Shown: one piece after another, positions 37,334 through 52,055 of the stretch
Numbering within the stretch: the first letter of the stretch is position 1
Layout of the letters: each line of letters opens with the position of its first letter
Assembly (NCBI GenBank): GCA_003599025.1
Contig: QZIL01000093.1
Location: 24,512-88,511 of the forward strand
Source of the DNA: Nitrospiraceae bacterium
GTDB lineage: Bacteria > Nitrospirota > Thermodesulfovibrionia > UBA6902
DNA length: 64,000 bases
Direction of reading: 5' to 3'
Translations under genes and position numbers: made by a program
Notes under the pieces: model-generated
Database searches by the model: none
What the model saw: only the letters and a program-made list of their open reading frames with translations
What the model was told of the DNA's origin: nothing

Positions 37334-37928
37334 CAAAACCGTCATAGAGAGGTTCCCGTCAGTAATTAAAGCCCTGAATGAAACCTGTCAGCAGGCTTTC
37401 ATATATCTGCGTTTAAGAAAAACAGAAACAGAAATATCAAGGCTGCTTAATCTGACTATTGATGATACTCGGGAAATGATAGAAACAGTCCGGAATGAAC
37501 TCATCAGGGCCGGTCTGCTCGACCTGATAGAAGATCCACGCTTTGTACCGATACACTCGGACGACCCTGACCTGCCTGACCTGCCGATTGAGGCAGGGGA
37601 ACTTGCTGCAGACAGCAGACTTATTGTCAGTGAATTCTTCTCACATCTCAAGGATGCAGTCACTAAGCTTCATGGTCATCAGACCAATCTGTTACGGCTG
37701 AGATACAAACACCAGCTTTCGGCCAAAGATATACTGGGGTTCTGCAAACATATTGGGACAAGCCTTGTCCCCGGCAGAGATGTTTCAGAACTGAAAGAAC
37801 AGGATGTCTTCTATGCACTCAATACAGCAGTAAAAGAGGTCCTTAAACAGCTGAAGTCCCGGTACAAGGGAGAAGAATCATTCAGTACGGAGAACCTCAA
37901 ATACATCTTTGAAGAGATTGGCTTGTGA
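37317..37928 (+). CDS. sigma-70 region-4-like protein with duplicated HTH (possible split sigma factor, part 2)
   Basis: 203 aa; +1 frame and 17-nt overlap with previous ORF; two region-4-like segments (QQAFIYLRLRKTETEISRLLNLTIDDTREM and NLLRLRYKHQLSAKDILGF). Confidence 0.45.
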   Translation: MEGPFSKTVIERFPSVIKALNETCQQAFIYLRLRKTETEISRLLNLTIDDTREMIETVRNELIRAGLLDLIEDPRFVPIHSDDPDLPDLPIEAGELAADSRLIVSEFFSHLKDAVTKLHGHQTNLLRLRYKHQLSAKDILGFCKHIGTSLVPGRDVSELKEQDVFYALNTAVKEVLKQLKSRYKGEESFSTENLKYIFEEIGL

Positions 37929-37981: not shown

Positions 37982-38875
37982 ATGGAACATATAAGTCTTG
38001 AAAAAATATTATCTTACACCGGGAAACGGCTCGATGACCGGGAGGCCCGTGAAGTTGAGGGGCATCTGGCAACATGTGAAAGGTGTCATGAGGTGTTTAT
38101 GGGCCTGAATTCAGCCGGAATTGCGGTGGGCAGGGCCTTTGATCCGGAACCTGCTACATCTTTATGCCCGGAAGACTGGGAGATGGCTGCACTGGTCCGG
38201 AAGGAACTTCCCTCCCAAACTGCAGAAAAGATAAAGACCCATTTGAAGGATTGCGGTTTCTGCGTTGACAGGGCTGCCGGATATTATAAGGCCTTGCATT
38301 TTGAAAGGCCTCCATTTATAACCCCTGAACAGTGGAAACATAAGGCCGTTCAGGGCATGGAAAACAGGCATGCAGTTATGGAGGAAGCAAAGGTTTCATT
38401 AATGCAACGCATTTTGTCTTCTTTCTCACAGATGACATCACCGCTGCCTGCTGTTGCCGGACTGGCTATAGCATTGCTCGCAATTGCCGTAATTACATGG
38501 ATCATCCTGCCGGGGAAAGGTACTCTGCAGGCCCTTGCATCAAATGAGACCCTGCTCATGAGGGATTCCGAAATCCCTTCATCGCTCGGTTTTTCCGGGA
38601 CTGATGATATAAGGGAAGTCAGCAAGATGGACATATCCCTTAACGGGAAGGAAATAATATTCATGTGGAAACCCATAGAAGGGGCGGTTGAATACAACTT
38701 CACGCTCATGGAAGGAAAACATCCTGTCTATGATGTGAAGACAGGCAACGGCGCACTGGTTGCTTTAAGCAATGAACTGATAGAGACACATACGACGTAT
38801 AACTGGCTTATTACCGGCAGGACAGCCGATAACAGATATTTTGAATATAAGGGCAACGTTGTACTGGTCAAGTAA
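37982..38875 (+). CDS. zf-HC2 anti-sigma factor, membrane-spanning
   Basis: RBS gggagg; HLATCERCHE and HLKDCGFCVD zinc-finger motifs; single TM (AVAGLAIALLAIAVITWIIL); periplasmic C-terminal domain. Confidence 0.6.
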   Translation: MEHISLEKILSYTGKRLDDREAREVEGHLATCERCHEVFMGLNSAGIAVGRAFDPEPATSLCPEDWEMAALVRKELPSQTAEKIKTHLKDCGFCVDRAAGYYKALHFERPPFITPEQWKHKAVQGMENRHAVMEEAKVSLMQRILSSFSQMTSPLPAVAGLAIALLAIAVITWIILPGKGTLQALASNETLLMRDSEIPSSLGFSGTDDIREVSKMDISLNGKEIIFMWKPIEGAVEYNFTLMEGKHPVYDVKTGNGALVALSNELIETHTTYNWLITGRTADNRYFEYKGNVVLVK

Positions 38876-38918
38876 CATGTCGATAGTCAGCAAGATAAGA
38901 AGTTGGGAAGTTAAGAAG

Positions 38919-40610
38919 ATGAGAAACAAAATTATTGTGGCCTTTGCTCGACAGCTAAACATCTTATGTTCTCATTTTCTATTTATTGCAATCTTCATGG
39001 CCTTTGCCTCTTCAGGGGCCTTTGCCGAAGACAGGGGAAGAAAGGAATTCTGGATAAACAAATACGGAATAACAAAAGAATACAGGTATACTGCGCGGGC
39101 ATACGCAGTGTTTGAGAGGGTCCTTGCTGCAGCCGACAGGCGGACCGGGATTGAACCTGCTTTATATATTGTGGATTATGATAAAACACCCTGGGCGCAG
39201 GCCCTTGCCGACGGTTCAATAATCCTGTCGAGAAAGGGCCTTGAATTTTGCTACAGCAGACAGGCCCCTGAAGACGGTGACTCGAGGCTGGCCTTTGTAA
39301 TAGGTCATGAGCTGGCCCACCAGTTTAACGGGGACTTCTGGCATTACAAATTCCTGAGAACAGCAGAAGACAGCGATGATAACATCCGGGCCTTTCAGGA
39401 CATAAAAGAACTCGCAAAGAGCACGGACATGCTTCTGGCCAAGGAACTGCAGGCAGACCAGTATGGCATTATTTTCGCCACAATGGCTGGTTACAACAGT
39501 GACAGGATCATTGCCGGTGACAGGAATTTTTTCCTTGAATGGGCTGAAAAAGAGACGCCTTCAGGCCGTCTGACCGAAAATCTCCGGTCCCTGTCCAGCA
39601 AAAGGGCAAAGGCTGTGTCAATGCGTCTCCAGGAAGTTTCGGACAGGATAGTCCTTTTTGATATGGGGGTCATCAGTTACCACCTTGGAAGGTTTGATGA
39701 GTCCCTGGTGCTTTTTAAAAGGTTTGCTTCCTTTTTCCCGGGCAGGGAGGTCTATACAAATGTCGGCACAATATACCTGCAGATGGCCTACAATAAATTC
39801 CGTATGGCAAGGAGTCCCGAGTCTTTTCCCTATGCACTCTCTTTCGGTATTGAAAAAAGGACGAGGGCCGAGTCTATTGATATTGCTTCAAAGGGCTTTA
39901 CAGAAACCGGGTACCGGGAATATAATGAGCTACTTCACATCGCGACCGATAATCTGAAAAAGGCGATTGAATATGATCCGTTTTACCACGAGGCAAAAAA
40001 CAATTTAGGATGCGCCTATATTATGGAAAACAGATATTATGACGCGGTATCTGTACTTGAGGATGCATTGAAGTCAGCACCTGATAGTGCTAAAATCCAG
40101 AATAATCTGGGGGTCGCCTATATTATGCTTGGACAATCAGTCGGCAGTAAGGGCCTTCTGGAAAAAGCGGAAAAAATGTTACTGGCTGCCCGGACCAGGG
40201 ACCGGAAGGCAGGCAGTAATTTCACTTCCTATCAGCGTATGTTTACGGATTTAAACAGCGGCCCTGAATCAGATAGTCCGATTGATGACCCGTTTGATGA
40301 TATTAATATTGAATTCAAGTCTTCTCCAAAATATAAACCTGAGATGAGTGTTTCTCCCGGGTACGGCCTTTCTTTGCTGGAAGTGATTTCTGACAGGGGG
40401 GATTCTGATCTGAAGGTTTTAAAGAAGGTCAGGGAAAATATATTCATCCTTGCCATGGGAGACAGAATTCGTCTGGTCTTATATAAAGAACCATCTCAAC
40501 TGATTACAAATATAAAAGGAGGTGAGCAGAGAAGCGTCTATGTGTCTGGCACGGGCAGGAACGGCGTTGTTATTTCAGTAAATACATCGCCTGATTATTT
40601 TGAATTTTAA
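38919..40610 (+). CDS. M48 family metallopeptidase with TPR repeats (BepA-like)
   Basis: signal peptide; HELAHQ zinc motif; C-terminal TPR-like repeats (NNLGCAYIMENRYYDA..., NNLGVAYIMLGQ). Confidence 0.7.
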   Translation: MRNKIIVAFARQLNILCSHFLFIAIFMAFASSGAFAEDRGRKEFWINKYGITKEYRYTARAYAVFERVLAAADRRTGIEPALYIVDYDKTPWAQALADGSIILSRKGLEFCYSRQAPEDGDSRLAFVIGHELAHQFNGDFWHYKFLRTAEDSDDNIRAFQDIKELAKSTDMLLAKELQADQYGIIFATMAGYNSDRIIAGDRNFFLEWAEKETPSGRLTENLRSLSSKRAKAVSMRLQEVSDRIVLFDMGVISYHLGRFDESLVLFKRFASFFPGREVYTNVGTIYLQMAYNKFRMARSPESFPYALSFGIEKRTRAESIDIASKGFTETGYREYNELLHIATDNLKKAIEYDPFYHEAKNNLGCAYIMENRYYDAVSVLEDALKSAPDSAKIQNNLGVAYIMLGQSVGSKGLLEKAEKMLLAARTRDRKAGSNFTSYQRMFTDLNSGPESDSPIDDPFDDINIEFKSSPKYKPEMSVSPGYGLSLLEVISDRGDSDLKVLKKVRENIFILAMGDRIRLVLYKEPSQLITNIKGGEQRSVYVSGTGRNGVVISVNTSPDYFEF

Positions 40611-40720
40611 TCGGGATAACTCTGTCCGTCCAATAATAATTACAATGATACTTTCCCTCACCCGGACCGGTTCTGAGAGCAGGAGGGCGATATTAAGGGA
40701 ACAAAAAAAGGAGGTCAGTA

Positions 40721-41311
40721 ATGAAAAAAGCTGTGAGGTTATGGTTTGTCTTATTATCAGCAATGGTATTGATTTCAGGATGTGCAGGCAGCAAGAAAGT
40801 GACCGATATGACACCGATACAGGAACTTAAGGCCCCTGAATGGGTAATGAAGGGAAGCGGTGCATTTGGCGGGGAAAAGGGCAAGGTGTTTTACGGGGTG
40901 GCGTCAGCCTCAAGGATGCAGAACATTTCCCTTATGCGTACTGCCGCAGACAACCGGGCGAGGAATGAAGTCGCAAAGGTCTTTCAGTTTTACACAGCGT
41001 CTCTGATGAAAGATTACGCTGCATCTACCGTTGCAGGAGACCCTGATGTCAGCTCTGAGGAACAGCATGTTGAGCAGGCCATAAAGACAGTCACGTCAAT
41101 GACTCTGTCCGGTGTTGAAGTTGTAGACCACTGGCAGAACCCTGCCACTCAGGAATTCTTCGCCCTTGCCAGGCTGGACCTCAATTCATTCAAGGACAAC
41201 TTTGACAAGATGCAGACCCTGGACAAGAAGGTAAGAGATTACATCAGAGAAAACGCGGACCGCATGCACGAGGAACTCGAAAAAGAAGAGGCAAAAAAGG
41301 CGGGCCAGTAA
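40721..41311 (+). CDS. LPP20/FlgP-like lipoprotein
   Basis: RBS aaggagg; lipobox LISGC; PEWVMKGSG...GVASA...AADNRARNEVAKV LPP20-type core. Confidence 0.55.
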   Translation: MKKAVRLWFVLLSAMVLISGCAGSKKVTDMTPIQELKAPEWVMKGSGAFGGEKGKVFYGVASASRMQNISLMRTAADNRARNEVAKVFQFYTASLMKDYAASTVAGDPDVSSEEQHVEQAIKTVTSMTLSGVEVVDHWQNPATQEFFALARLDLNSFKDNFDKMQTLDKKVRDYIRENADRMHEELEKEEAKKAGQ

Positions 41312-41411
41312 CAGGTAAATTGACGGGTTGCAGGGGGTGACATTTGCTCTGCAGCCCGGACATAAATTCGAAGTTGCTGAGAAGGCCATAAGTATGATTA
41401 CAACTTGGTTC

Positions 41412-41487
41412 GTCATTCCCGCAATACGTTGAGCGGGAATCCATTTAAGGAACTGGATACCTGATTAAGGACTTTGGGTATGACAGT
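41412..41487. repeat. family-A element
   Basis: GTCATTCCCGCaatacgttgaGCGGGAATCC...GGGTATGACAG; related to the 52375 copy. Confidence 0.65.
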
Positions 41488-41545
41488 CAATAACGGATCA
41501 TACATATAAGCTTATTGATAGGTAATTAGGATATGTGAGGTTGCC

Positions 41546-41995
41546 ATGAAAAAACTTTTTCTGACATTAACAATAATTCTGTCTATGACCGGCACGGTCT
41601 TTGCCGGCCCTGAAAGAGTAACGCTGATTACAGAGGATGAAGGCGCCATGAAAGATGCCCCCCCAGGACTTTATGACGTGGGGAGGGTTCTTAACACCGG
41701 TCCTGAGATAAAGATTATTTCACCCGAAATTGCAGATGAATATCATCCCCCTGTTGACATTAACATTGTTTTTGAACCGACAGATGATGCGAAAGTCGAC
41801 ATGTCAAAGTTCAAGGTTGAGTATATTAAAATAATGTCTCTTGATATTACAGACAGGTTTTTGCAATACACAACTAAAGATGGGATAAGGATCAAGAATG
41901 CCGACTTCCCGAGAGGCAAACACAAATTGAAGGTCACTATCGGGGATGATCATGGCGGGATAACTGAGGAGATATTTACAGTCAAGCTGCTGTAG
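41546..41995 (+). CDS. secreted hypothetical protein
   Basis: 149 aa with signal peptide (TGTVFA/GPE); no family recognised. Confidence 0.45.
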   Translation: MKKLFLTLTIILSMTGTVFAGPERVTLITEDEGAMKDAPPGLYDVGRVLNTGPEIKIISPEIADEYHPPVDINIVFEPTDDAKVDMSKFKVEYIKIMSLDITDRFLQYTTKDGIRIKNADFPRGKHKLKVTIGDDHGGITEEIFTVKLL

Positions 41996-42191
41996 TTTTT
42001 TAGTGTTCCGGCGGTCTGCGGCGATCAGACAGAAGACTGCTGAAACCAATTGTCATTATTAGAAACTGTCATGCCCGTTCCGTGACAAAGCGCGGAACGG
42101 GTCTCCGGTTATTTAAAGAGCTGCTGCCTGTTCCATAAGTTATGACGCTGAGGACAGGTTTTACCGGAATTATAGAAAAAGGACACGAAGC

Positions 42192-42839
42192 ATGTTCAGA
42201 TTACAGTCTCTTTTTTCATTGCTGGTTTTTCTGATTGCATTGGCAGACGGTGCCTCTGCAGGGTCTGCTTATGACAATGTTTACGCGGAATACCCGAAAG
42301 ATAAATACCTTGTGGGTATAGGCGAGACCGGCAGGACCGGGAATTTCCTGAATGACAAAAGGGTTGCTGAGGTGCTTGCGAGGCTCGAAATTGCCAAGCA
42401 GATAAAGGTCAGGCTCAAAGAAGAAACCGTAGATATAATGTGTGAAGGCGGGGCAGCAAGGCTGTTCAAAGACATGCGCGAATGCAGAAATGAATTTGTC
42501 ATGGTAGTTGAAGTCACTGTCGATGAGTTTCTTTCGGGCTCAAAGATAGTCAGTCATTGGGAACAGGATGGAATTGTATATGCAGTAGCTGTACTGCCGA
42601 AGGCAGAGGCTGTCAAAGAACTTGATGACAGGTCAAAGGAGTCGGCAGACAGGACCAGGGAAAATATTGAAAAGGCCAAAAACGGAGACGACGGGGCTGC
42701 TGGCGAAGCACAAAGGGAATATATGAAAGCAGTGACATATGACAGGGAAAAAGAGATGCTTGACGGAGTCAGAAGCCGTTCATCGGACATGTTTGATGAG
42801 CTTGAGAAGGAGTTGGTGAAGCTGGGGGGTAAGGAATGA
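42192..42839 (+). CDS. LPP20-like secreted protein
   Basis: 215 aa; signal peptide; YLVGIGETG...AEVLARLEIAKQIKVRL core similar to 40721 and 45301 products. Confidence 0.5.
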   Translation: MFRLQSLFSLLVFLIALADGASAGSAYDNVYAEYPKDKYLVGIGETGRTGNFLNDKRVAEVLARLEIAKQIKVRLKEETVDIMCEGGAARLFKDMRECRNEFVMVVEVTVDEFLSGSKIVSHWEQDGIVYAVAVLPKAEAVKELDDRSKESADRTRENIEKAKNGDDGAAGEAQREYMKAVTYDREKEMLDGVRSRSSDMFDELEKELVKLGGKE

Positions 42840-45160
42840 AAACCATAAAGATGGCAATGCTGCTTTTGGTCCTTATTATGCCGGCATATGTTTATTCTGC
42901 CGACAACAAAAAAGATCCCTCTCAGAATGGGGAGAAAACTGACTTCAGGATATTTAAGGGCCATTCAGAGGAAGTTCTCACGATTGCCTTAAGTCCGGAC
43001 GGCCGGATGCTGGCATCGGGTGGTGAAGATGAAATTGTTATTCTCTGGAATGTATCCACCGGAGAAAAGATAAGGACGCTCAAGGGACACTCGGGCCATG
43101 TTACGGCACTGTCCTTCAGTCCTGCCAACCAGACACTGGCTTCTGGAAGCAAGGACAAGAAGATAATTATATGGGATGCAGCTACCGGTGAGAAGATAAA
43201 GGACTTCAGTGACGACAGCTTCGATGCTGTCCTGTCAATTGCCTTCAGTCCTGACGGCAAAAGCCTTGCGGTCGGAAGTGAGGAGGAAACCATTACCTTA
43301 TGGGACCCGGAATCTGGAAAGACAATAAGAACTCTGAAGGGACATTCAGATGAAGTCTGTTCCCTGGCCTTCAGCCCAGACGGAAAATTGCTCGCCTCAG
43401 GCAGCGGTGATAAAACAATTATTATATGGAACCCTGTGACCAGCGAAATCCGCAACACCCTGAAAGGCCACAAAGATACGGTAAACTCTGTGGCGTTCAG
43501 TCCCGATGGCCGGGTGTTGGCCTCTGGTAGTGAGGACAGGACAATCGCCCTCTGGAATATTGCTTCCGGGGAAAAAATAAATATGCTGACTGACAATAAA
43601 GACTCTGTGCAGTCTGTTGCCTTCAGTCCTGATGGAATGCTTCTCGTCTCAGGCAATGAGGACGAAACCGTTACCATATGGGACGCGCAGACCGGAGGTA
43701 AACTAAAAATTCTTTCAGGGCATAAGGACATGATTACATCAGTTATATTCAGTCTGGATGGAAGCTCCCTTATATCAGCCGGTGAGGACAGAAATATAAT
43801 TGTCTGGAATACCGGCTACAGGACCTCATTCGCAGGTCCGCCGGCATCTGTCCCCTCACCCGCTGCTCCCCTGTCGGCAACAAAGGCCCCGGCAAATAAA
43901 ATCCCGGAAGTCAAGGTCCCGACTGTTAAAACCCCGGCATTTGCCCCTAATCTCCCTGTTCTGGCTGCGCCTGAACTGATGTACGATGTCAGGGTGGATG
44001 ATGCGAATGGCAACGGGATTTTCGAGGGAGGAGAAACTATCAAAGTGACAGTGAATATTGAAAACAGGGGCAAGGGTGCTGCCGAGGCTGTTGAGATATT
44101 GGTGTCCGGCAATAATTCACTGATATACTGCCTTGGAAACAGCAGGGTTGTGGGCGATGTTGGCCCCGGCAGTAAAAAAGATGTAATCCTGCAATGCACT
44201 CTGCCCACTCGCCTTAAGGCTGAAACAGCCCACATTTCTCTGGAACTGGCAGAGCAGAGGGGTTATTCACCCGCGGAAATAAAGTCCTTTACTGTTGCCA
44301 TGAAACCAGCTGATATAATAAAGACCGAGCACATAATTTCCCGGCATATAGATGTGGATGTGGTCCCTGCAAAAAACAGTAATTTCAGGAGGGACAATTC
44401 ATATGCTCTTGTAATAGGGATCAGCAATTATCGTGACAAGGAAATTCCTCCGGTCAAATACGCAAAATCAGACGCGGAGAAATTTGCAAAGTACCTCGAA
44501 AATATCGGAGGGGTCCCGGCAAAGAACATCAAGCTGGTCACTGACGAGATGGTGACCAAGGGTGACATTGAAGCATATATCGAAGACTGGCTGCCGAGAA
44601 GGATAAAAAAAGATTCCGAGGTCTTTGTTTATTATGCCGGACACGGTACTCCTGACCCCCGTACCGGTGAGGCATATATTGTACCATATGACGGAAATCC
44701 TGATTACAAATCAAAGCTCTATCCCCTTAAAAGGATGTATGCCTCTTTAAACAAGCTGCCGTCAGAACAGGTTGTTGTTATGCTGGATTCCTGTTTCTCC
44801 GGAGGAGGGGAGAGGGGTGTAATGAGTCAGGGGACCAGGCCTGTAAGTCTGTCTGTTGAGAACCCTATCCTGGCCGGAGGGAAGGTTTTTGTACTTGCTT
44901 CAGCTTCAGGGACGCAGATAAGTTCAGATTTTGATAAGGTAAAACACGGATTATTTACTTATTATCTTCTTAAAGGGATGAAGGGCGATGCGGACGAAGA
45001 CATGAACGATAAAATAGAGCTTCAGGAACTCTATAAGTATGTAAAGCATAACGTCTCTGAGACCGCATCATCTGAACTGAACAGAGAACAGATGCCTGTG
45101 CTTCTGCCTGATATGGAGCAGCACAGACCTGCAGCGATCGAAATAACAAGGGTGAAGTAG
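42836..45160 (+). CDS. secreted WD40-repeat / CARDB-like / caspase (peptidase C14) fusion protein
   Basis: 774 aa; signal peptide; seven WD40 blades (LASGS.D..I.IWD); CARDB-like middle; C-terminal caspase fold with His (YYAGHG) and Cys (LDSCFSGG) dyad. Confidence 0.8.
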   Translation: MKTIKMAMLLLVLIMPAYVYSADNKKDPSQNGEKTDFRIFKGHSEEVLTIALSPDGRMLASGGEDEIVILWNVSTGEKIRTLKGHSGHVTALSFSPANQTLASGSKDKKIIIWDAATGEKIKDFSDDSFDAVLSIAFSPDGKSLAVGSEEETITLWDPESGKTIRTLKGHSDEVCSLAFSPDGKLLASGSGDKTIIIWNPVTSEIRNTLKGHKDTVNSVAFSPDGRVLASGSEDRTIALWNIASGEKINMLTDNKDSVQSVAFSPDGMLLVSGNEDETVTIWDAQTGGKLKILSGHKDMITSVIFSLDGSSLISAGEDRNIIVWNTGYRTSFAGPPASVPSPAAPLSATKAPANKIPEVKVPTVKTPAFAPNLPVLAAPELMYDVRVDDANGNGIFEGGETIKVTVNIENRGKGAAEAVEILVSGNNSLIYCLGNSRVVGDVGPGSKKDVILQCTLPTRLKAETAHISLELAEQRGYSPAEIKSFTVAMKPADIIKTEHIISRHIDVDVVPAKNSNFRRDNSYALVIGISNYRDKEIPPVKYAKSDAEKFAKYLENIGGVPAKNIKLVTDEMVTKGDIEAYIEDWLPRRIKKDSEVFVYYAGHGTPDPRTGEAYIVPYDGNPDYKSKLYPLKRMYASLNKLPSEQVVVMLDSCFSGGGERGVMSQGTRPVSLSVENPILAGGKVFVLASASGTQISSDFDKVKHGLFTYYLLKGMKGDADEDMNDKIELQELYKYVKHNVSETASSELNREQMPVLLPDMEQHRPAAIEITRVK

Positions 45161-45194
45161 AGGTACTAAGACATAACTTAACAAAGCCTCATGC

Positions 45195-45253
45195 CCGTCA
45201 TTCCGGGCTTGACCCGGTCGGATCGACTCGCCCCGACCTTCGCGGGAATGACA
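45195..45253. repeat. family-A element variant
   Basis: cGTCATTCCGGG...GGTCGGatcgactcgcCCCGACC...CGCGGGAATGAC. Confidence 0.6.
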
Positions 45254-45300
45254 AACAAGGTGGCTTTCAATATGTAGTTGTTAGTAAGGGGTAGGTTCAC

Positions 45301-45837
45301 ATGAAGTTATTTCTGACATCGATTTTTCTTTTTTCATTCTTGACAGCCTGCCAGTCAGCCTATGTCAAACCATCAGGCCCGCCGCCTGCCTGGGTGGTCA
45401 GGACGCCTGATATGAAAGGCATGATCTGTGCTGTCGGGGCAAGCGGTCCCACGTATTTCAGGGATGACGCGCAGTTGAATGCTGCTGAAAACGCGAGGGC
45501 GGAGCTCGCAAGGACGATAAGCGTCAGCATTAAGAACATAATGGTCGAGATGACTTCTGACAAAGGCAGCTATATTGATGACGCGACCGTAAGTGAGGTC
45601 TCGTCTTGGGCCACCTCGGCAGTTGTGGAAAATTCCAGCATAATGGAGTACTGGTATGACGCGGACGGTCAGGTGTCGAAAAAGGATTTCACCTATGCCC
45701 TTGGCTGCATGCCGCGCAAGTTTGACAGGAAGTCTCTTGAGGCGCACATGTCTGATTCACATTCTGCCGGCCAGGGGAGTCATAATGACATCAGCCGCGC
45801 GGCAGATGAGATACTCAGGCAGCTTGAGGGGGAGTGA
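45301..45837 (+). CDS. LPP20/FlgP-like lipoprotein
   Basis: 178 aa; lipobox LTAC; PPAWVVRTPD...AVGASG...AAENARAELARTISVSI. Confidence 0.55.
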   Translation: MKLFLTSIFLFSFLTACQSAYVKPSGPPPAWVVRTPDMKGMICAVGASGPTYFRDDAQLNAAENARAELARTISVSIKNIMVEMTSDKGSYIDDATVSEVSSWATSAVVENSSIMEYWYDADGQVSKKDFTYALGCMPRKFDRKSLEAHMSDSHSAGQGSHNDISRAADEILRQLEGE

Positions 45838-45925
45838 ATGCTTATGTTGGTTCAATCATTCTGATTGAACTATAAAGCTAAATTATATGGAGCATCTCCG
45901 AAAAAGTGCTAATAAGCAGATGGTT

Positions 45926-45998
45926 GTCATTCCCGCGCAGGCGGGAATCCAGAGCCTTTGAAAGGACCAGATTCCGGTTTAAGGACTGCCGGAATGAC
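45926..45998. repeat. family-A element
   Basis: GTCATTCCCGCgcagGCGGGAATCC...gccGGAATGACag; overlaps the 5' leader of the FGE-like gene. Confidence 0.7.
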
Positions 45999-46007
45999 AG
46001 GAAGGGC

Positions 46008-47054
46008 ATGAAAAATATAATCCTGGCCATCATTATCTCTATGGTATTATCCTCTTATGCATTCGCTGCCGAGGTCAAGAACGTTGTCTCCTCCCAGTCA
46101 GGCAACCGCGTGCTCTTTGAATATGACCTGACCGGAGAAGAGAAAGAGGCTGACGTTAATATCACGATCACCGTCAACGGCACGGCCTATAGCGCAGAAA
46201 AGCTCTACCTTGAGGGTGATTATGGGAAGGTCAGCTTAGGCAAGGGTAGGAAGATATACTGGAACGTGCTCCAGGACTTTCCGAGGGGACTTAATACGAC
46301 GTTTGAGTGGGAGATAACTGAGGGAGGCAAAGACTTCAAAGATCCGTTGACAGGAATGGAGTTTGTCTTTGTTAAAGGTGGGTGTTTTCAGATGGGGGAT
46401 ACGTTTGGCGATGGAGATGCGGATGCGAAGCCGGTACATGAGGTGTGCGTGGATGATTTTTATCTGGGGAAATATGAGGTGACTCAGAGGCAATGGAGAG
46501 AGGTTATGGGGAACAATCCTTCGTATTTCAAGAACTGTGGCGATGACTGCCCTGTGGAACAGGTGAGTTGGAACGATGTGCAGGAGTTCATTAATAAGCT
46601 GAATGAAAAGATAACCCCCCATAGTCCCCCCTTAGATAAGGGGGGAAGAAAAGGGGGGTACAGACTTCCTACAGAGGCGGAGTGGGAGTATGCCGTACGG
46701 AGCTGTGGGAAGAAGGAGGAGTACTCAGGTAGTGACAGTATTGACAGTGTGGCATGGTATGACAGTAATTCGGGAAGAAAGACACATCCTGTAGGGCAGA
46801 GAAGTCCTAATGGTCTCGGCATTTATGACATGAGCGGCAATGTATGGGAATGGGTACAGGACTGGTACGGGGAGAAATATTACGGTGAAAGTCCCAAGTA
46901 CAATCCTAATGGACCGAACAGTGGAACCGCTCGCGTGCTGCGCGGCGGGTCTTGGAGCAATATTACGAGGTATGCTCTCACATCCAATCGCGTCAGGTAC
47001 CATCCCGACTACAGATTCAACAACGTCGGGTACCGCCTTCTTTGGACTAAGTAG
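46008..47054 (+). CDS. secreted FGE-sulfatase (SUMF1/EgtB/PvdO) fold protein, apparently lacking the catalytic Cys pair
   Basis: signal peptide; N-terminal beta domain; FGE core (YRLPTEAEWEYA...NGLGIYDMSGNVWEW...RVLRGGSW...VGYRL). Confidence 0.8.
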   Translation: MKNIILAIIISMVLSSYAFAAEVKNVVSSQSGNRVLFEYDLTGEEKEADVNITITVNGTAYSAEKLYLEGDYGKVSLGKGRKIYWNVLQDFPRGLNTTFEWEITEGGKDFKDPLTGMEFVFVKGGCFQMGDTFGDGDADAKPVHEVCVDDFYLGKYEVTQRQWREVMGNNPSYFKNCGDDCPVEQVSWNDVQEFINKLNEKITPHSPPLDKGGRKGGYRLPTEAEWEYAVRSCGKKEEYSGSDSIDSVAWYDSNSGRKTHPVGQRSPNGLGIYDMSGNVWEWVQDWYGEKYYGESPKYNPNGPNSGTARVLRGGSWSNITRYALTSNRVRYHPDYRFNNVGYRLLWTK

Positions 47055-47276
47055 TTTATTAGTCTTTAGACTTTTTGCTTTTTTACACTTTGTTTTTTTG
47101 GGGTACAGGGGCATTGCCCCTGTAGAAAATAAATATGGAGGTAGGATAGGAGCACACTCCTCAGTCCCTTCTCGGAATCGAGTCAATACGACTTTATAGA
47201 GAAGAGATACAGTGAAACAACTTGAAATATGAAAAGTACATAAGTAATCTAATAAAAAATCATTAAATCGTTTATT

Positions 47277-47618
47277 ATGAAGAAGACAATAAAACCGCCT
47301 CTAAGAAAGTCTGTGCTGAACACCATATTAAAACGTCTGGTGGATAACCTTGACGTTGTCAAGATAATCCTATTTGGCTCCTATGCTTCAGGCAAGCCGA
47401 CAAAGGACAGCGACCTGGACCTTCTCATCATTCTGAATACCAAAGAAAAAGGGCTGAAACGCTATGCGATGGTCAGTGAGCTGCTTGAGCCGAGAAAAAT
47501 ACCGATGGACATCATTGTAAAGACGCCTGAAGAGATGAAGAGCAGGGCCAGGATGTTTGACCCATTTTTGAGAACGGTTCAGAAAACAGGGAAGATCCTC
47601 TATGAAAAACCAGCCTGA
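47277..47618 (+). CDS. nucleotidyltransferase (MNT-type antitoxin)
   Basis: 113 aa; LFGSYASGKPTKDSDLDLLIIL Pol-beta NTase motif. Confidence 0.8.
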   Translation: MKKTIKPPLRKSVLNTILKRLVDNLDVVKIILFGSYASGKPTKDSDLDLLIILNTKEKGLKRYAMVSELLEPRKIPMDIIVKTPEEMKSRARMFDPFLRTVQKTGKILYEKPA

Positions 47619-47988
47619 TGTCCTTGAATGGATATTGAAAGCAGAACAGGATTATGAGACTGCTGAAACAATGGCCCGCAGAAGGAAGAATCCTGTGCCT
47701 GATGTGGTCGGTTTCCACAGCCAGCAATGCATTGAAAAATATTTAAAGGCCTATCTCGTTTTGAAAAAGCTCGATTTTCACAAGACGCACGACCTGCTTG
47801 AACTCCTTGAAATAGCTCTCGCAAAAGATCCGCTCCTCGAAGGATACAGGGCCGACCTGCGACTGTTAAATCCATTCTCTGTTCAATTCCGTTATCCCGG
47901 TGAAAGCGCGACACTGGAAGAGTCAAAAACGGCATTGAAGGCCATGCGCAAGGTGCGGATGTTTATTAGAGAAAAGTTTAATCTGTAA
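47602..47988 (+). CDS. HEPN domain protein (toxin partner of MNT)
   Basis: 128 aa; overlaps MNT gene by 17 nt; HEPN fold with conserved ...FRYPG.. region. Confidence 0.75.
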   Translation: MKNQPDVLEWILKAEQDYETAETMARRRKNPVPDVVGFHSQQCIEKYLKAYLVLKKLDFHKTHDLLELLEIALAKDPLLEGYRADLRLLNPFSVQFRYPGESATLEESKTALKAMRKVRMFIREKFNL

Positions 47989-48005
47989 AGTCACAGGGAT
48001 GGGGC

Positions 48006-49397
48006 ATGTTTAAAAAATTATCTGCCGTTACATTAGCAATTATCCTTTCAGCCTCAATGGCTTTTGCCGAGAAAGGCTCTCTTAAGATCGGCATCCTTCC
48101 CGCGCCCCCAAACATTTCAGCGAGCGTGAAATTTACCGAGCCGTCAGGCAACAACATCCTCGACGCGGAGGAGACAGGCACGCTGACCATCATTATAAGC
48201 AATTCCGGGAAGGGGGACGCCTTTGACGTCACGGCTGAGCTAAAGGCGGACAAAAAGACCAGAGGCTTTACCTATAACAATACCGTATCTTTTGGCACGA
48301 TACCTGCCGGTAAGCAGTCATCGATGGACATTGAACTAAGGGCCGGGGAAGACATCCCCACCGATAATATAGCTTTCTCGATAACCGTAAAGGAGGCAAA
48401 CGGCTTTGACGCGGACCCGCTTAAGGTGGCGTTCAGGACAAAGTCCTTTGAGCCTCCAAGTCTCATTATCGCTGACATCGGCATAGACGACCAGAACGGC
48501 AATTCATCTGTCGAGCAGATGGAGATTGTGGTTGAGGGCGTAGACGCGCCGAAGGGAGAGATAAGGGTAGCAAAAGGTCTCAGCGTGGACATTGAACAGG
48601 GCCTGCCGGTCACAAAGACACAGAACAGGGACGCCTTTGCGGTGGTCATGGGCAACTCGGAGTACAAATACGCGAAGAACGTCGACTTTGCGGTAAATGA
48701 CGCTCAGATGGTAAAACGCTATTTGACCGAAGTCCTTGGCTTCAGGGAGGGCAATATCTTCATACTTGCCAACGCGACAAAAGGGGACCTTGAGCTCTAC
48801 TTCGGGACCAAAGACAATTTCAAAGGCAAACTCTTTAACCAGGTAAAGCCGGGCAGGTCGGACATTTTTATCTATTATTCAGGGCATGGCGCCCCGGGCC
48901 TGAAAGACAGGAAAGGCTACATCGTCCCTGTCGAGGCAGACCCGCAATATATCGAACTGAGCGGCTACCCGCTGGATGTCTTCTACAGCAACCTCTCGAA
49001 GCTTCCTGCAAAGTCCGTGACGGTAGTGACGGACGCGTGCTTTTCAGGCGCAGACATTTATGACAGCATCTCACCGATAGTCCTTGAGATAGACAACCCG
49101 GTCATAAACCTGAATAACGGAATCGTGCTTTCAAGTTCGACAGGAACTCAGGTCTCGACATGGTACAATGAGAAGAAGCACGGGATGTTCACGTACTTCT
49201 TTTTGAAAGCAATACACGACAGGAACGCGGATTATGATGGGAACAGGGAGCTTACATTTGATGAAATTTACCGGTATATTTCGGACAGGTCCGACGGCGT
49301 TCCCTATTACGCAAGAAGCATACATAATGTGGAGCAGACGCCTGTCATTCAGGGAAAGTATCAGGGCAGGGTGTTGGTGACGTATGAGGAGAAATGA
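48006..49397 (+). CDS. secreted caspase family protein (peptidase C14) with N-terminal CARDB-like domains
   Basis: 463 aa; signal peptide; His (IYYSGHG) and Cys (VTDACFSG) catalytic dyad. Confidence 0.8.
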   Translation: MFKKLSAVTLAIILSASMAFAEKGSLKIGILPAPPNISASVKFTEPSGNNILDAEETGTLTIIISNSGKGDAFDVTAELKADKKTRGFTYNNTVSFGTIPAGKQSSMDIELRAGEDIPTDNIAFSITVKEANGFDADPLKVAFRTKSFEPPSLIIADIGIDDQNGNSSVEQMEIVVEGVDAPKGEIRVAKGLSVDIEQGLPVTKTQNRDAFAVVMGNSEYKYAKNVDFAVNDAQMVKRYLTEVLGFREGNIFILANATKGDLELYFGTKDNFKGKLFNQVKPGRSDIFIYYSGHGAPGLKDRKGYIVPVEADPQYIELSGYPLDVFYSNLSKLPAKSVTVVTDACFSGADIYDSISPIVLEIDNPVINLNNGIVLSSSTGTQVSTWYNEKKHGMFTYFFLKAIHDRNADYDGNRELTFDEIYRYISDRSDGVPYYARSIHNVEQTPVIQGKYQGRVLVTYEEK

Positions 49398-49496
49398 AAA
49401 TAAACACACCCCTCTATCCCTTCTTTTTAGAGGGGATGAATTGGAATGGCCCAAAAAATGAAAACAGTGTCCGTCAAAATATTTAAACACATAAAT

Positions 49497-49528
49497 ACCT
49501 GGATTCCGGATCAAGTCCGGAATGACGC
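49497..49528. repeat. family-A element, partial (3' module)
   Basis: ggattccggatcaagtccggaatgacgcc. Confidence 0.5.
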
Positions 49529-49592
49529 CATTAAACTGAAGCATTGATTGTTTATTATTAGAATAATGAATTAACGATATTATGGAGGGCAT

Positions 49593-50930
49593 ATGAAAAA
49601 AATATTTCTGGTATCGGCCATATTATTCATTTTTACCTCGTCAGCCTTTGCCGAGTTCCCTGCTGTAAAGGTATACGAGAAGACGGCAAAGAATGTTGTG
49701 CTGATAATCGCCAAAAGCGAAGACACCAGCAGTATGATAGGCGCGGGATCCATTATTTCAGGCACTGGACTGGTCTCTACAAACGCACATGTAGTTGTTG
49801 ACAAGTCTACCTCAAAACCATATTCAAAGATCAGGGTATATCTTAAACCTGATAAGGTGACCGGGAAGTTCAGGAAGGACCTTGTCCATAGCCATAAGGC
49901 TGAAATAGTAGCATATGACATCGACCTGGACCTGGCCATTCTGAAAGCTGAAGAAATCCCGTCCGGGACAGGGACCATAGAACTTGCAAACCCGGATGAG
50001 ATAAAAGTCGGCGAAGAGGCAGTGGCTATCGGCCACCCTGAGCAGGGAGGCCTCTGGACCCTCACATACGGAAGAATAAGCGGAGAAATAGAAGACCAGA
50101 ACAGCATAAAGGGTAAAGACGTATTTCAGACAGACGCGAGCGTCAACCGCGGCAATTCCGGCGGCCCTCTCCTCGATAAAAGAGGGTACATGATAGGCAT
50201 AAACTCAAACATGGCGCGTCTGGGGGCAGGTGATATTCCGATAACAGGTGTTAATTTTGCTGTCAAGGCCTCGGTGCTGAAAAGCTGGCTTCAGAAGCAG
50301 GGGATTACACTTGCTTATGGAAAAGCGGACCTGTACAAAGAAGAACGGGTGAAGCCCGCAGGAGCAGAACTTGAGATGGAGAAAAAATCTGAACAACCGG
50401 AAGTACCAAGGGCAGAACCCTCTGTTGAGAAAGCAGAGCCTGTTATAGAGAAACCGGAACCGTCTGTTGAAAAGACTGAGCCGTCGGTAGAAAAAGCAGA
50501 ACCAGTCGCTGAGAAAGCGGAACCATCTGTTGAAAAGACTGAGCCGTCGGTAGAAAAAGCAGAACCAGTCGCTGAGAAAGCGGAACCATCTGTTGAAAAG
50601 ACTGAGCCATCAGTAGAAAAAGCCGAACCTGTCGTTGAGAAGGCGGAACCATCTGTTGAAAAGGCGGAAGCCCCTGTCGAGAAGGCGAAACCTGTAATAA
50701 GGCAGGCTGAACCACCTGTCAGGAAATCACATACTGTTGTTGAAAAAGCGGAACCCCGTGCTGAACAGAAAGACATGAAAGACGGGGACGGAGAGAAAAC
50801 GCCGGAGACTGAACAGACTGAAAAATACCAGCCTCATCGTAAGGCCTACAGCTATGACTCATTGTTGAAGGCAGCTGAAGAAGATCTTGAAGACATGATG
50901 GAGGAGATGAGGGGAAAGATCAGAAGGTGA
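49593..50930 (+). CDS. secreted trypsin-like serine protease with C-terminal EK/P-rich tandem-repeat linker
   Basis: signal peptide; TNAHVV (His), DLAIL (Asp), GNSGGPL (Ser) triad; C-terminal repeats (EKAEPSVEKTEPSVEKAEPVA)n. Confidence 0.7.
   Translation: MKKIFLVSAILFIFTSSAFAEFPAVKVYEKTAKNVVLIIAKSEDTSSMIGAGSIISGTGLVSTNAHVVVDKSTSKPYSKIRVYLKPDKVTGKFRKDLVHSHKAEIVAYDIDLDLAILKAEEIPSGTGTIELANPDEIKVGEEAVAIGHPEQGGLWTLTYGRISGEIEDQNSIKGKDVFQTDASVNRGNSGGPLLDKRGYMIGINSNMARLGAGDIPITGVNFAVKASVLKSWLQKQGITLAYGKADLYKEERVKPAGAELEMEKKSEQPEVPRAEPSVEKAEPVIEKPEPSVEKTEPSVEKAEPVAEKAEPSVEKTEPSVEKAEPVAEKAEPSVEKTEPSVEKAEPVVEKAEPSVEKAEAPVEKAKPVIRQAEPPVRKSHTVVEKAEPRAEQKDMKDGDGEKTPETEQTEKYQPHRKAYSYDSLLKAAEEDLEDMMEEMRGKIRR
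50448..50700 (+). repeat. in-frame 63-bp coding tandem repeat (about 3.5 units)
   Basis: the unit gagaaagcggaaccatctgttgaaaagactgagccgtcggtagaaaaagcagaaccagtcgct is repeated nearly perfectly inside the protease gene. Confidence 0.75.
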
Positions 50931-51817
50931 TGAAGATAGAGAGCATAAAAATAATCAAATGCCTGCTTTCATTTTTTATTGTTACATATGCTGTGGCGGT
51001 ATATTCTTCAAAGGCGCTTAGAGCTGAGGACACGGCCCCGCTTGTTCCGGACAATGATAACCTTAAGATAGTAGAAGCTGTTGGAGAAATTCTGCTTGGT
51101 GATGACACCACCCCTGCACAGGGCAGGGCAATGGCCCGTAATAACGCGAGGAGAAATGCTCTTGAACAGGCAGTAGGGGTAAAGGTCCACAGCTCGACAG
51201 TTTTATACAATAGCAGCCTTATAAGCGACCTTGTTGTAACAGCCACCAAGGGGCTGATAGTTGAAGAACAAATAATTGATGACGGGCCGGTCATAAAAGG
51301 AGACCAGATATATCATATTTGCAAGCTCAGGGCATATGTAAAGCCTGTCAATATAGAAAAGAGAGGGAACTTCAGGGTCCTTAAAGCTGAAGTCCTGAGG
51401 GCCGGGTCGGACAGAGGTCTTAAAAACCCTGTATTTCAGGACAATGATGAAATACAGGTGATAGTAAGTGTTAATGAAGCTTCACATATAAATATTTTCA
51501 GCGTGAGCCAGGACGGAATGGTTTCGCAGCTTTATCCGAATAAATTTTTTAAATCAGAGCAGCTGGCTGCCGACAAGACCATGATATTCCCGGATGATGC
51601 CCAGCGGGCACTTGGACTGAGACTCCGTGTAAGGACCCCGAAAAAACTGAGCTCGGCACTTGAATCGGTGCTCGTGGTAGCTTCAAAGGAAATGATCGAG
51701 TTGCATCCTGCAGACGGGATGAATGAGCTTATGCTTACGGACGTTCTGAAGAGTCTTTCTGGAATCGATCCGTCATTATGGGCTGATATGACAGTCGGGT
51801 ATGAGGTGAGGAAGTAG
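50927..51817 (+). CDS. LPP20-like plus DUF4384 domain protein
   Basis: 296 aa; signal peptide; N-terminal LPP20-like core (AVGEIL..AQGRAMARNNARRNALEQAVGVKV); C-terminal DUF4384-like (EIQVIVSVNEASHINIFSVSQDGMVSQLYPNKFF). Confidence 0.55.
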   Translation: MMKIESIKIIKCLLSFFIVTYAVAVYSSKALRAEDTAPLVPDNDNLKIVEAVGEILLGDDTTPAQGRAMARNNARRNALEQAVGVKVHSSTVLYNSSLISDLVVTATKGLIVEEQIIDDGPVIKGDQIYHICKLRAYVKPVNIEKRGNFRVLKAEVLRAGSDRGLKNPVFQDNDEIQVIVSVNEASHINIFSVSQDGMVSQLYPNKFFKSEQLAADKTMIFPDDAQRALGLRLRVRTPKKLSSALESVLVVASKEMIELHPADGMNELMLTDVLKSLSGIDPSLWADMTVGYEVRK

Positions 51818-51835
51818 CGGGTCAATTTTACCTTA

Positions 51836-52055
51836 ATGTTGCATAAAGCAGGCAAGCGGCCTTGCTGTAAAACCTTTACAATGCGATGGTAAATTGGGAT
51901 TAAACTTTGGCAGCAGGTCTTAATGCTAAGCGAAGTTCAGAATAATATACGTTATGCTTTTATGAATCTTGCTGAGGTATCGCAGGTAAAGCTTTTCCGT
52001 CAAGCCCGCTCACCTTATACGAGTAATTTAATGCAACTGGAAAGTTTATATATGA
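51836..52055 (+). repeat. conserved ~225-nt noncoding element, copy 2
   Basis: shares blocks with copy 1: taatgtt.cataaa.caggcaagcggcc, aaacctttacaatgcgat, gcaggtaaagcttttcc.tcaag.ccgct, taatgcaactg. Confidence 0.5.

What the first reader, a model, noticed from the sequence alone, without database searches (positions are those of the whole stretch)
40721..51817. Four dispersed paralogous LPP20/FlgP-like lipoproteins, one fused to DUF4384
The products of 40721, 42192, 45301 and 50927 share a core pattern: (P.WV)...G.G......A...A...AR.ELA..I.V.V. All are exported, and two have lipoboxes. The fourth adds a C-terminal DUF4384-like domain, which is known to co-occur with C14 caspases. Their alternation with the protease genes suggests cognate partners, for example inhibitors, anchors or chaperones for each protease.
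Basis: inference. Interest (0 to 1): 0.6.

Follow-up and report, generated by a model that had tools for sequence, protein, structure and literature searches.

The report
LPP20-like partners of exported proteases
Three distantly related LPP20-family envelope proteins and a fourth FlgP/FlgT-like protein fused to DUF4384 sit in a conserved, undescribed operon with secreted caspase-like and HtrA-like proteases, and most likely act as the non-catalytic anchors or adaptors of those proteases under the outer membrane.

Summary
The four ORFs exist exactly as listed. A (40721), B (42192) and C (45301) pass Pfam's LPP20 cut-off, and family profiles link them to each other (hhalign 95-99%). They are old paralogues, only 20-24% identical.

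D (50927) carries a clear DUF4384 domain. Its N-terminal domain is not an LPP20 member by Pfam or hhalign. Its profile hits only C. jejuni FlgP in the PDB (E 5e-4). Relatives hit Pfam FlgT_N weakly. An AlphaFold model gives the same SHS2-like fold class, with dodecin and Tip-alpha as top matches.

A and C have lipoboxes. B and D have plain signal peptides.

The order anti-sigma, M48/TPR, A, X, B, WD40-caspase, C, HtrA-like protease, D recurs in several Nitrospirota MAGs. Reduced forms occur in other phyla: A-B-HtrA, A-B-C-HtrA and D-caspase. Natural B::D fusion proteins exist. D neighbours a caspase gene in 11 of 12 informative metagenome loci.

So a functional link to the proteases is supported, but it is not one-to-one. 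D pairs with caspases, and A/B/C as a group pair with the HtrA-like protease. Whether they act as anchor, inhibitor or substrate is unresolved. I favour an outer-membrane-tethered scaffold or adaptor. I found no published description.

The parts
40721..41311 (+). A: 196-aa LPP20-family outer-membrane lipoprotein (lipobox LISG|C21) with an acidic C-terminal helix.
   Evidence: Pfam LPP20 at 31.2 bits. There are 1060 homologues and the top 120 are >=63% identical; NCBI names several 'LPP20 family lipoprotein'. Lipobox in 52 of 59 family members.
41546..41995 (+). X: 149-aa exported protein of unknown family that follows A in most full versions of the cluster (absent in L009, L013).
   Evidence: No Pfam or NCBIfam hit. 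Orthologues follow A in L001, L006-L008, L010, L012 and L063, and precede B in L003.
42192..42839 (+). B: 215-aa LPP20-family protein with a plain signal peptide (ASA|GS), two invariant Cys (84, 98) and a long helical tail.
   Evidence: Pfam LPP20 at 31.5 bits. 66 homologues. Invariant cysteines seen in alignment A3. hhalign to C is 97.9%. Fused to D in P0073, P0082, P0090, P0097 and P0103.
42836..45160 (+). Exported protein with a seven-bladed WD40 domain, a CARDB-like domain and a C14 caspase domain. The His (GHG, 599) and Cys (DSCFSG, 651) motifs are intact.
   Evidence: WD40 at 255 bits. Peptidase_C14 at 78.3 bits on the C-terminal half. Catalytic motifs checked.
45301..45837 (+). C: 178-aa LPP20-family lipoprotein (lipobox LTA|C17).
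   Evidence: Pfam LPP20 at 26.0 bits against a cut-off of 25.9. 270 cluster representatives at E<=1e-3, many of them tandem LPP20 repeats scoring 50-70 bits. The family profile hits H. pylori Lpp20 (5ok8) at E 0.0031. hhalign to A is 99.1%.
49593..50930 (+). Exported HtrA/DegP-type serine protease domain with no PDZ domain. It has a repeat linker and a conserved acidic C-terminal helix.
   Evidence: Trypsin_2 at 93 bits. DegP/HtrA subfamily at 1.2e-31, below that model's cut-off. His/Asp/Ser motifs are intact in the orthologues. Lies immediately downstream of C in 7 loci.
50927..51817 (+). D: 296-aa exported two-domain protein. N-domain is FlgP/FlgT_N-like with an SHS2-type fold (about residues 41-150, nt 51047-51376). 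A dibasic linker EKRG follows, then a DUF4384 beta-sandwich (residues 151-295, nt 51377-51811).
   Evidence: DUF4384 at 46.6 bits. 142 or more full-length homologues. AF2 model pLDDT 84.9. FlgP hit at E 5e-4. FlgT_N hits in 12 of 28 relatives. Fold matches. Linker conservation.
48006..49397 (+). Second exported C14 caspase (beta-sandwich N-terminal part plus caspase domain). It is a lineage-specific addition to the operon.
   Evidence: Peptidase_C14 at 51.9 bits. Absent at this position in L001, L006 and L008. Related caspases flank D elsewhere.
45906..47054 (+). Exported FGE-sulfatase-domain protein, an accessory and lineage-specific insertion. The real start is probably Met35 at nt 46008.
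   Evidence: FGE-sulfatase at 165.7 bits. Absent at this position in L001, L006 and L008. Recurs in related clusters L012, L056 and L066.
38841..40610 (+). Exported M48-like metalloprotease (HELAH at 156) with TPR repeats, an architecture like BepA.
   Evidence: TPR_2 at 41 bits. Peptidase_M48 at 19.3 bits, just under its 20.3 cut-off. HExxH motif. Conserved upstream of A in L006-L010, L012 and L063.
37982..38875 (+). zf-HC2 anti-sigma factor with a transmembrane segment and a periplasmic C-terminal domain.
   Evidence: zf-HC2 at 35.1 bits. Conserved at the head of the cluster.
36941..37928 (+). Two overlapping ORFs (130 aa and 203 aa) with faint sigma-factor similarity. They may be the cognate sigma factor.
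   Evidence: Only sub-threshold NCBIfam hits. The same two-ORF layout occurs in L007 and L063. No PDB hit.

Best explanation
A, B, C and the N-domain of D are non-catalytic SHS2-type (LPP20/FlgP/FlgT-like) subunits of a conserved cell-envelope module. Its enzymes are exported proteases: one or two C14 caspases, an HtrA-like serine protease and an M48/TPR metalloprotease. A dedicated anti-sigma factor lies at the head of the cluster and presumably controls it.

Proposed mechanism (inferred):
- A and C are lipid-anchored in the inner leaflet of the outer membrane.
- B and D are soluble periplasmic subunits that join A and C through SHS2-SHS2 contacts, as FlgP does with itself, Lpp20 and HP1454.
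- The resulting hetero-oligomeric platform positions the proteases under the outer membrane.
- D is the caspase-specific adaptor: its DUF4384 beta-sandwich binds the CARDB-caspase.
- The A/B/C set serves the HtrA-like protease, possibly through the acidic C-terminal helices that all of them share.

The module would thus confine and direct proteolysis at the outer membrane, for envelope quality control or remodelling.

Shown here: family and fold assignments, export signals, lipoboxes, intact catalytic motifs, conserved synteny, B::D fusions and D-caspase adjacency. Inferred: physical assembly, which subunit binds which protease, and the physiological role.
For: - A, B and C pass the LPP20 cut-off and are mutually homologous over their full length.
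- D's N-domain matches FlgP and FlgT_N and has the SHS2-class fold.
- Lipoboxes occur only in the A and C families.
- The gene order is conserved in Nitrospirota MAGs L001, L006, L007, L008 and L010, at the same chromosomal site.
- Reduced modules occur in other lineages: A-B-HtrA (L065, L066), A-B-C-HtrA (L013), A-HtrA (L064), X-B-D (L003) and a D-like protein next to B (L011).
- Natural B::D fusion proteins exist.
- D lies next to a caspase in 11 of 12 informative loci, and those caspases carry CARDB/DUF11 repeats typical of extracytoplasmic proteins.
- All protease catalytic motifs are intact.
- Precedent from the literature: FlgP self-assembles into rings and contacts an HtrA-derived protein, PflC; the fold is shared with Lpp20 and FlgT (PMC12222027). 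FlgP interacts with Lpp20 and HP1454 (PMC11756786).
- In L063 the operon runs on into CsgG/FlgO-, LPP20- and LpoB-like lipoproteins.
Against: - There is no direct evidence of any protein-protein contact. No multimer prediction was possible.
- A is far commoner than B or D (1060 homologues against 66 and 142 or more) and can occur with no protease nearby (L062). It may therefore have a protease-independent role.
- D's N-domain is not linked to A/B/C by profile comparison.
- The fold matches are weak (E>=0.02), and the insert that would be the ring-forming hairpin is modelled with pLDDT<50.
- Synteny alone fits inhibitor or substrate roles equally well.
Confidence: 0.4

Rival explanations
1. Substrate or pro-form model. 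D, and perhaps the LPP20 proteins, are what the proteases cut. The adjacent Arg/Lys-specific caspase would cleave D at its conserved dibasic inter-domain linker. This would separate the SHS2 domain from DUF4384 as a regulated switch, feeding into the sigma/anti-sigma pair or releasing an assembly-competent fragment.
For: - The linker E-[KR]-[RK]-G is conserved in 31-34 of 40 D relatives and lies between two well-folded domains, with lower pLDDT there.
- Orthocaspases cut after basic residues (abstract of PMC6426788).
- DUF4384 forms the C-terminal domain of some Csx30 proteins. Csx30 is the substrate of the caspase-like Csx29 and is bound to a sigma factor.
- D-caspase is the most widespread two-gene unit.
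Against: - A conserved basic linker could be purely structural.
- In the studied Csx30, the cut site is after Met and lies inside the beta-barrel.
- D has no Csx30-like N-domain and is exported.
- The B::D fusions and the A/B/C set are not explained by this model.
Confidence: 0.2
2. Inhibitor or immunity model. The small SHS2 proteins bind and silence the exported proteases until a signal arrives, protecting the cell's own envelope. This would resemble periplasmic protease inhibitors such as ecotin.
For: - Tight adjacency of a small exported protein with each active protease (C-HtrA and D-caspase).
- The proteases keep their catalytic residues, so they would need restraint.
Against: - No LPP20/FlgP/FlgT family member is known to be a protease inhibitor (my knowledge, and no such paper found).
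- A occurs with no protease nearby.
- Lipid anchoring and multiple paralogues suit a scaffold better than a 1:1 inhibitor.
Confidence: 0.15
3. Independent structural role. The LPP20-type proteins build an outer-membrane-associated structure of their own, such as a disk, tether or CsgG-linked assembly. The proteases are only co-regulated envelope enzymes with no direct contact.
For: - The LPP20 genes co-occur with each other more constantly than with any one protease.
- The L063 cluster continues into CsgG/FlgO/LpoB-like lipoproteins.
- The cluster is embedded between bamA-skp-lpxD-fabZ-lpxA-lpxI and gfo/degT.
Against: - The HtrA-like protease accompanies A/B/C in 11 of the 12 loci with enough sequence.
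- D accompanies a caspase in 11 of 12 loci.
- That degree of linkage across phyla is hard to explain by co-regulation alone.
Confidence: 0.15
4. They are flagellar basal-disk or H-ring components, that is, true FlgP/FlgT orthologues.
For: D's only PDB sequence hit is FlgP, and its only recurrent Pfam hit is FlgT_N.
Against: - There are no flagellar genes in or beside the cluster in the window or in any related locus examined.
- The scores are far below family cut-offs.
- D has no lipobox.
Confidence: 0.02

Closest known systems
LPP20 family (Pfam PF02169; H. pylori Lpp20/HP1456, PDB 5OK8)
   Same: A, B and C pass the family cut-off. They share the P-x-W-V start, the G-x-G strand and the A...A..AR.ELA helix motif. 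A and C are lipoproteins like Lpp20. The C-family profile hits 5OK8 at E 0.0031.
   Different: Three paralogues sit in one operon together with proteases. B has lost the lipid anchor. All three carry long acidic C-terminal helices. Lpp20's own function is unknown.
FlgP (C. jejuni basal disk, PDB 9HMF) and FlgT N-domain (Vibrio H-ring, PF16548)
   Same: D's N-domain is closest to these. It has the same beta-alpha-insert-beta-beta layout, and its roughly 25-residue insert aligns with FlgP's ring-forming hairpin region. In the Campylobacter motor, FlgP contacts an HtrA-derived protein (PMC12222027).
   Different: The context is not flagellar. D has no lipobox and is fused to DUF4384. Scores are sub-threshold, and ring formation was not tested.
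DUF4384 (PF14326) as an accessory domain of caspases, orthocaspases and Csx30
   Same: D has a bona fide DUF4384 domain and is genomically tied to C14 caspases. The literature notes DUF4384 on orthocaspases and 'often fused to protease domains'.
   Different: Here DUF4384 is on a separate exported protein, joined to an SHS2 domain. It is encoded beside the caspase rather than fused to it.
Outer-membrane lipoprotein adaptors of periplasmic proteases (NlpI-Prc in E. coli, LbcA-CtpA in Pseudomonas); cited from my own knowledge
   Same: The proposed logic is the same: a lipoprotein tethers a soluble periplasmic protease and directs it to substrates.
   Different: Those adaptors are TPR proteins and their proteases are C-terminal processing peptidases. 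There is no sequence or fold relationship, so this is an analogy only.

Membership tests
LPP20 (PF02169) | Whole-protein score at or above Pfam's gathering cut-off (25.9 bits) | tested here: met
   A scores 31.2, B 31.5 and C 26.0 bits. This holds for A, B and C only.
LPP20 (PF02169), applied to D | Whole-protein score at or above the cut-off, or a profile-profile link to members | tested here: not met
   No LPP20 hit at E<=10 for D, for 40 full-length relatives or for 28 isolated N-domains. hhalign to the A, B and C families gives <6% probability.
LPP20 (PF02169) | Signal peptide with a lipobox cysteine (lipoprotein) | tested here: met
   Met for A (52/59 in family) and C (51/80). Not met for B (3/31) or D (1/40).
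SHS2-like fold class of Lpp20/FlgP/FlgT/dodecin | Three-stranded sheet with one helix across it (beta-alpha-beta-beta), recovered by structure search | tested here: inconclusive
FlgP (flagellar basal disk) | Encoded with, and acting at, the flagellar motor (flgO/flgQ/flgT/pfl neighbours) | tested here: not met
   No flagellar genes in the window cluster or in any related locus examined.
FlgP (flagellar basal disk) | [quoted passage not shown] | tested here: inconclusive
   D has an insert of similar length that aligns to FlgP residues about 110-135. AF2 models it at pLDDT<50 as loop plus short helix.
DUF4384 (PF14326) | Score at or above the gathering cut-off (27 bits) | tested here: met
   D scores 46.6 bits. 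All 40 aligned relatives hit the family.
Csx30-type caspase substrate (type III-E CRISPR) | Cytoplasmic protein with a sigma-binding helical N-domain, cleaved by the TPR-CHAT protease | tested here: not met
   D is exported, and its N-domain is SHS2-like, not the helical Csx30 NTD. Cleavage was not testable.
Lipoprotein adaptor of a periplasmic protease (NlpI/LbcA type) | Direct binding of the lipoprotein to the protease and substrate delivery | not testable with these tools
   Only gene linkage is available. This needs multimer modelling or biochemistry.

The most novel reading that the evidence does not exclude
The SHS2 proteins form an outer-membrane-anchored ring or lattice that works as a periplasmic activation platform for exported caspases, a periplasmic counterpart of an apoptosome or inflammasome. 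WD40 and DUF4384 would serve as docking modules, and the conserved EKRG linker of D as the first cut. Outer-membrane damage or attack would trigger it, with read-out through the operon's own sigma/anti-sigma pair.
Probability: 0.1. Interest if true: 0.85.

Novelty: new variant of a known kind. Interest (0 to 1): 0.55.

Why it matters
Bacterial caspase homologues are widespread, but their partners, substrates and cellular location are largely unknown. This analysis adds several concrete points.
- A whole class of these caspases is exported.
- They are encoded with a dedicated two-domain partner (an SHS2 domain plus DUF4384).
- In Nitrospirota they sit in a conserved operon with three LPP20-family proteins, an HtrA-like protease, a BepA-like protease and an anti-sigma factor, beside the bamA/lpx genes.

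This gives DUF4384 and the poorly understood LPP20 family a testable role. It also names specific protein pairs to test: D with the caspase, A/B/C with the HtrA-like protease, and B with D. If the scaffold idea holds, the fold that builds flagellar disks would also organise envelope proteolysis.

Tried and rejected
- Exact-sequence look-up of D found nothing, because the deposited protein starts one residue later. P0001 identified the source as a Nitrospiraceae MAG.
- Foldseek with the full-length D model returned only generic beta-sandwich matches (Wzt CBD, RhoGDI) for the DUF4384 half. I therefore modelled the N-domain alone.
- hhalign of D against the B, A and C families gave no significant link. 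I do not call D an LPP20 member.
- The B-family profile against the PDB found nothing.
- NCBIfam gave no family for A, X, B, C or D.
- PADLOC gave no defence-system assignment beyond generic caspase and protease models, so I rejected a known anti-phage system.
- A flagellar role was rejected on gene context.
- I looked for an outer-membrane beta-barrel gene downstream of D, as seen in L001 and L064. None is present in the window at 51817-52577.
- The split-sigma idea for 36941-37928 has only sub-threshold support.
- Literature searches linking LPP20 to prokaryotic caspases or orthocaspases found nothing relevant.


Full report
WHAT IS THERE

The window carries a single-strand run of genes from 36941 to 51817. 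In order:
- two small ORFs with faint sigma-factor similarity (36941, 37317);
- a zf-HC2 anti-sigma factor (37982);
- an M48-like/TPR protease (38841);
- A (40721-41311, 196 aa);
- X (41546-41995, 149 aa, no family);
- B (42192-42839, 215 aa);
- a WD40 plus C14-caspase protein (42836-45160);
- C (45301-45837, 178 aa);
- an FGE-sulfatase-domain protein (45906);
- a nucleotidyltransferase/HEPN toxin-antitoxin pair (47277, 47602);
- a second C14 caspase (48006);
- an HtrA-type serine protease with no PDZ domain (49593);
- D (50927-51817, 296 aa).

The run lies between lptE-leuS, bamA-skp-lpxD-fabZ-lpxA-lpxI on one side and gfo/degT plus an SLT-LysM transglycosylase on the other. Identical deposited proteins place the window in a Nitrospiraceae MAG.

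ARE THE FOUR PROTEINS ONE FAMILY?

A, B and C each pass Pfam's LPP20 gathering cut-off: 31.2, 31.5 and 26.0 bits against 25.9. They are only 20-24% identical, and pairwise BLASTP is weak or not significant. Profiles built from each protein's own homologues do join them over their full length, including the C-terminal helix: A-C 99.1% (E 6.5e-19), B-C 97.9%, A-B 94.9%. A C-family HMM scanned over every ORF of the window finds A (1.9e-14), B (2.4e-11) and nothing else. Longer relatives of C are tandem LPP20 repeats scoring 50-70 bits. The C profile hits H. pylori Lpp20 (5OK8) at E 0.0031. A, B and C are therefore ancient paralogues within the LPP20 family.

D is different. Its C-terminal half is a clear DUF4384 domain (46.6 bits). 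An AlphaFold model (pLDDT 84.9) shows it as a beta-sandwich.

Its N-terminal domain (about residues 41-150) gets no LPP20 hit, whether in D itself, in 40 relatives or in 28 isolated domains.

Other evidence places it in the same fold class:
- Its profile hits exactly one meaningful PDB sequence, chain C of 9HMF, at E 5e-4. The 9HMF paper models FlgP in that scaffold, and the 171-aa chain 'Lipoprotein, putative' matches Cj1026c/FlgP from my own knowledge.
- 12 of 28 relatives give sub-threshold hits to Pfam FlgT_N, best 2.4e-4.
- The domain-only model has beta-alpha-insert-beta-beta topology.
- Its best Foldseek matches are dodecins, the FtsA SHS2 domain, Tip-alpha and RcsF, at probability up to 0.9 but E>=0.02.

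Dodecin and Tip-alpha (a reported structural homologue of Lpp20) belong to the fold group that the FlgP structure paper lists as shared by FlgP, Lpp20 and FlgT (PMC12222027). I therefore call D's N-domain FlgP/FlgT-like at the fold-class level, not an LPP20 family member.

EXPORT

All four proteins start with a basic n-region and a hydrophobic core, read directly from the sequence.
- A has LISG|C and C has LTA|C. Lipoboxes are the rule in their families (52/59 and 51/80).
- B (ASA|GS) and D have no lipobox (3/31 and 1/40).
- B has two invariant cysteines, which fits a periplasmic location.

Every protease in the cluster also has a signal peptide and intact catalytic motifs.

CONSERVATION

The order anti-sigma, M48/TPR, A, X, B, WD40-caspase, C, HtrA, D recurs in Nitrospirota MAGs (L001, L006, L007, L008, L010). 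It sits at the same chromosomal site: lpxI lies upstream in L007 and gfo/degT downstream in L008. Compared with these relatives, the FGE-sulfatase gene, the toxin-antitoxin pair and the second caspase are insertions in the window.

Reduced or rearranged versions occur elsewhere:
- A-B-C-HtrA in a Thermodesulfobacteriota MAG (L013);
- A-B-HtrA, with or without FGE-sulfatase (L065, L066);
- A-HtrA-OMP at the same lpxI/gfo site (L064);
- X-B-D (L003);
- a divergent D next to B in Nitrospinales (L011);
- HtrA next to an A-like protein in Myxococcota (L014);
- A-X-C-HtrA running on into CsgG/FlgO-, LPP20- and LpoB-like lipoproteins (L063);
- A alone (L062).

D is the broadest element with a clear partner. 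Among 12 non-redundant metagenome loci with at least 1.5 kb on both sides, 11 have a same-strand C14 caspase within 800 nt. Those caspases carry CARDB/DUF11 repeats. Five deposited proteins (P0073, P0082, P0090, P0097, P0103) are natural fusions of a B-like LPP20 domain to a complete D. A sixth (P0025) fuses D to the 190-aa protein that follows HtrA in L063.

HOW IT MOST LIKELY WORKS

The shown facts are these:
- several divergent SHS2-type proteins, two lipid-anchored and two soluble;
- strong mutual gene linkage and a B::D fusion;
- D tied to caspases, and A/B/C tied to an HtrA-like protease;
- all partners exported and catalytically intact.

Established knowledge of the fold family says that these domains assemble with themselves and with each other under the outer membrane. 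FlgP forms rings, and it interacts with Lpp20 and HP1454 (PMC12222027, PMC11756786). In Campylobacter the FlgP disk contacts an HtrA-derived protein.

My best explanation (confidence 0.4) is an outer-membrane-tethered hetero-oligomeric scaffold or adaptor set that positions the exported proteases. D would be the caspase adaptor through DUF4384, and A/B/C would serve the HtrA-like protease. Every assembly step is inferred.

Rivals:
- D is a caspase substrate, cut at its conserved E-[KR]-[RK]-G linker. Csx30 gives a loose precedent, since some of its C-terminal domains are DUF4384.
- The proteins are protease inhibitors.
- The proteins form an independent structure that is merely co-regulated with the proteases.
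- The proteins have a flagellar role, which gene context effectively excludes.

COMPARISON WITH WHAT IS KNOWN, AND NOVELTY

A, B and C are new members of the LPP20 family. NCBI already names some A orthologues 'LPP20 family lipoprotein'. D's DUF4384 domain and its general association with caspases are already noted in the literature.

In the libraries searched I found no description of the following:
- the FlgP/FlgT-like N-domain of the D family;
- the separate-gene D-caspase pair;
- the B::D fusion;
- the conserved LPP20/HtrA-like/caspase/M48-TPR/anti-sigma operon next to the outer-membrane biogenesis genes.

PADLOC does not know it as a defence system. Functionally, the nearest analogues are lipoprotein adaptors of periplasmic proteases such as NlpI-Prc and LbcA-CtpA (from my own knowledge). 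These use an unrelated fold. I rate it a new variant of a known kind, of moderate interest. It gives concrete and testable partners for bacterial caspases and for two poorly understood domain families, but the mechanism remains unproven.

LIMITS

- Only two structure jobs were available, so A, B and C were not modelled and no complexes could be predicted.
- Signal peptides were judged by eye and by pattern counts, not with a dedicated predictor.
- All related loci come from MAGs and metagenomes.

Noticed in passing
window 36941-37928 (+): Two ORFs overlap by 17 nt: a Cys-rich 130-aa ORF and a 203-aa ORF. They have only faint sigma-factor similarity. The first resembles a type III-E RpoE-like sigma (E 0.0045) and the second resembles FliA/ECF region 4 (E 0.002-0.004). 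The same two-ORF split is kept in L007 and L063, so it is not a frameshift artefact. This may be a two-subunit sigma factor.
   Followed up: partly
window 47277-47988 (+): A nucleotidyltransferase/HEPN toxin-antitoxin pair is inserted inside the operon. Different toxin-antitoxin pairs sit at comparable positions in related clusters: DUF6036/AbiEii in L001, and HicA plus HepT/NTase in L003.
   Followed up: no
window 50415-50701 and 50790-50927 (+), within the HtrA-like protease gene: A tandem repeat of 21/63 nt encodes EKAEPSV-type repeats. Orthologues vary from 310 to 445 aa. After the repeat comes a very conserved acidic C-terminal tail (PYxYDxLLKxxEEDLEDMMEEMRGKIRR). It resembles the C-terminal helices of A (HEELEKEE) and B (FDELEKELVKL) and may be a shared docking helix.
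   Followed up: partly
window 26737-36560 and 52577-56589; L064; L004: The cluster is embedded in outer-membrane biogenesis genes (lptE, leuS, bamA, skp, lpxD, fabZ, lpxA, lpxI upstream; gfo/degT downstream). L064 has a minimal A-HtrA-OMP set at the same site. In a Deltaproteobacterium (L004), the D-caspase pair is followed by leuS-lptE.
   Followed up: partly
L063 13478-18823: In one related contig the operon continues into a CsgG/FlgO-like lipoprotein, a 343-aa LPP20 protein and two LpoB/CsgG-like lipoproteins. This links the module to other outer-membrane ring-forming lipoprotein families.
   Followed up: no
window 51356-51367 (D residues 144-147): The inter-domain linker E-[KR]-[RK]-G is conserved in 31-34 of 40 D relatives. 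It is a candidate cleavage site for an Arg/Lys-specific orthocaspase.
   Followed up: partly
window 45906-47054 (+): The FGE-sulfatase ORF as listed starts at a GTG with a non-signal N-terminus. A Met 34 codons downstream (nt 46008) gives a normal signal peptide (MKNIILAIIISMVLSSYAFA). A strong promoter-like site lies at 45994-46021.
   Followed up: no
window 38841-40610 (+): The M48-like metalloprotease (HELAH) with C-terminal TPR repeats has the domain layout of BepA, the BAM-associated protease. It scores far below the BepA model cut-off (13.4 bits against 570).
   Followed up: no
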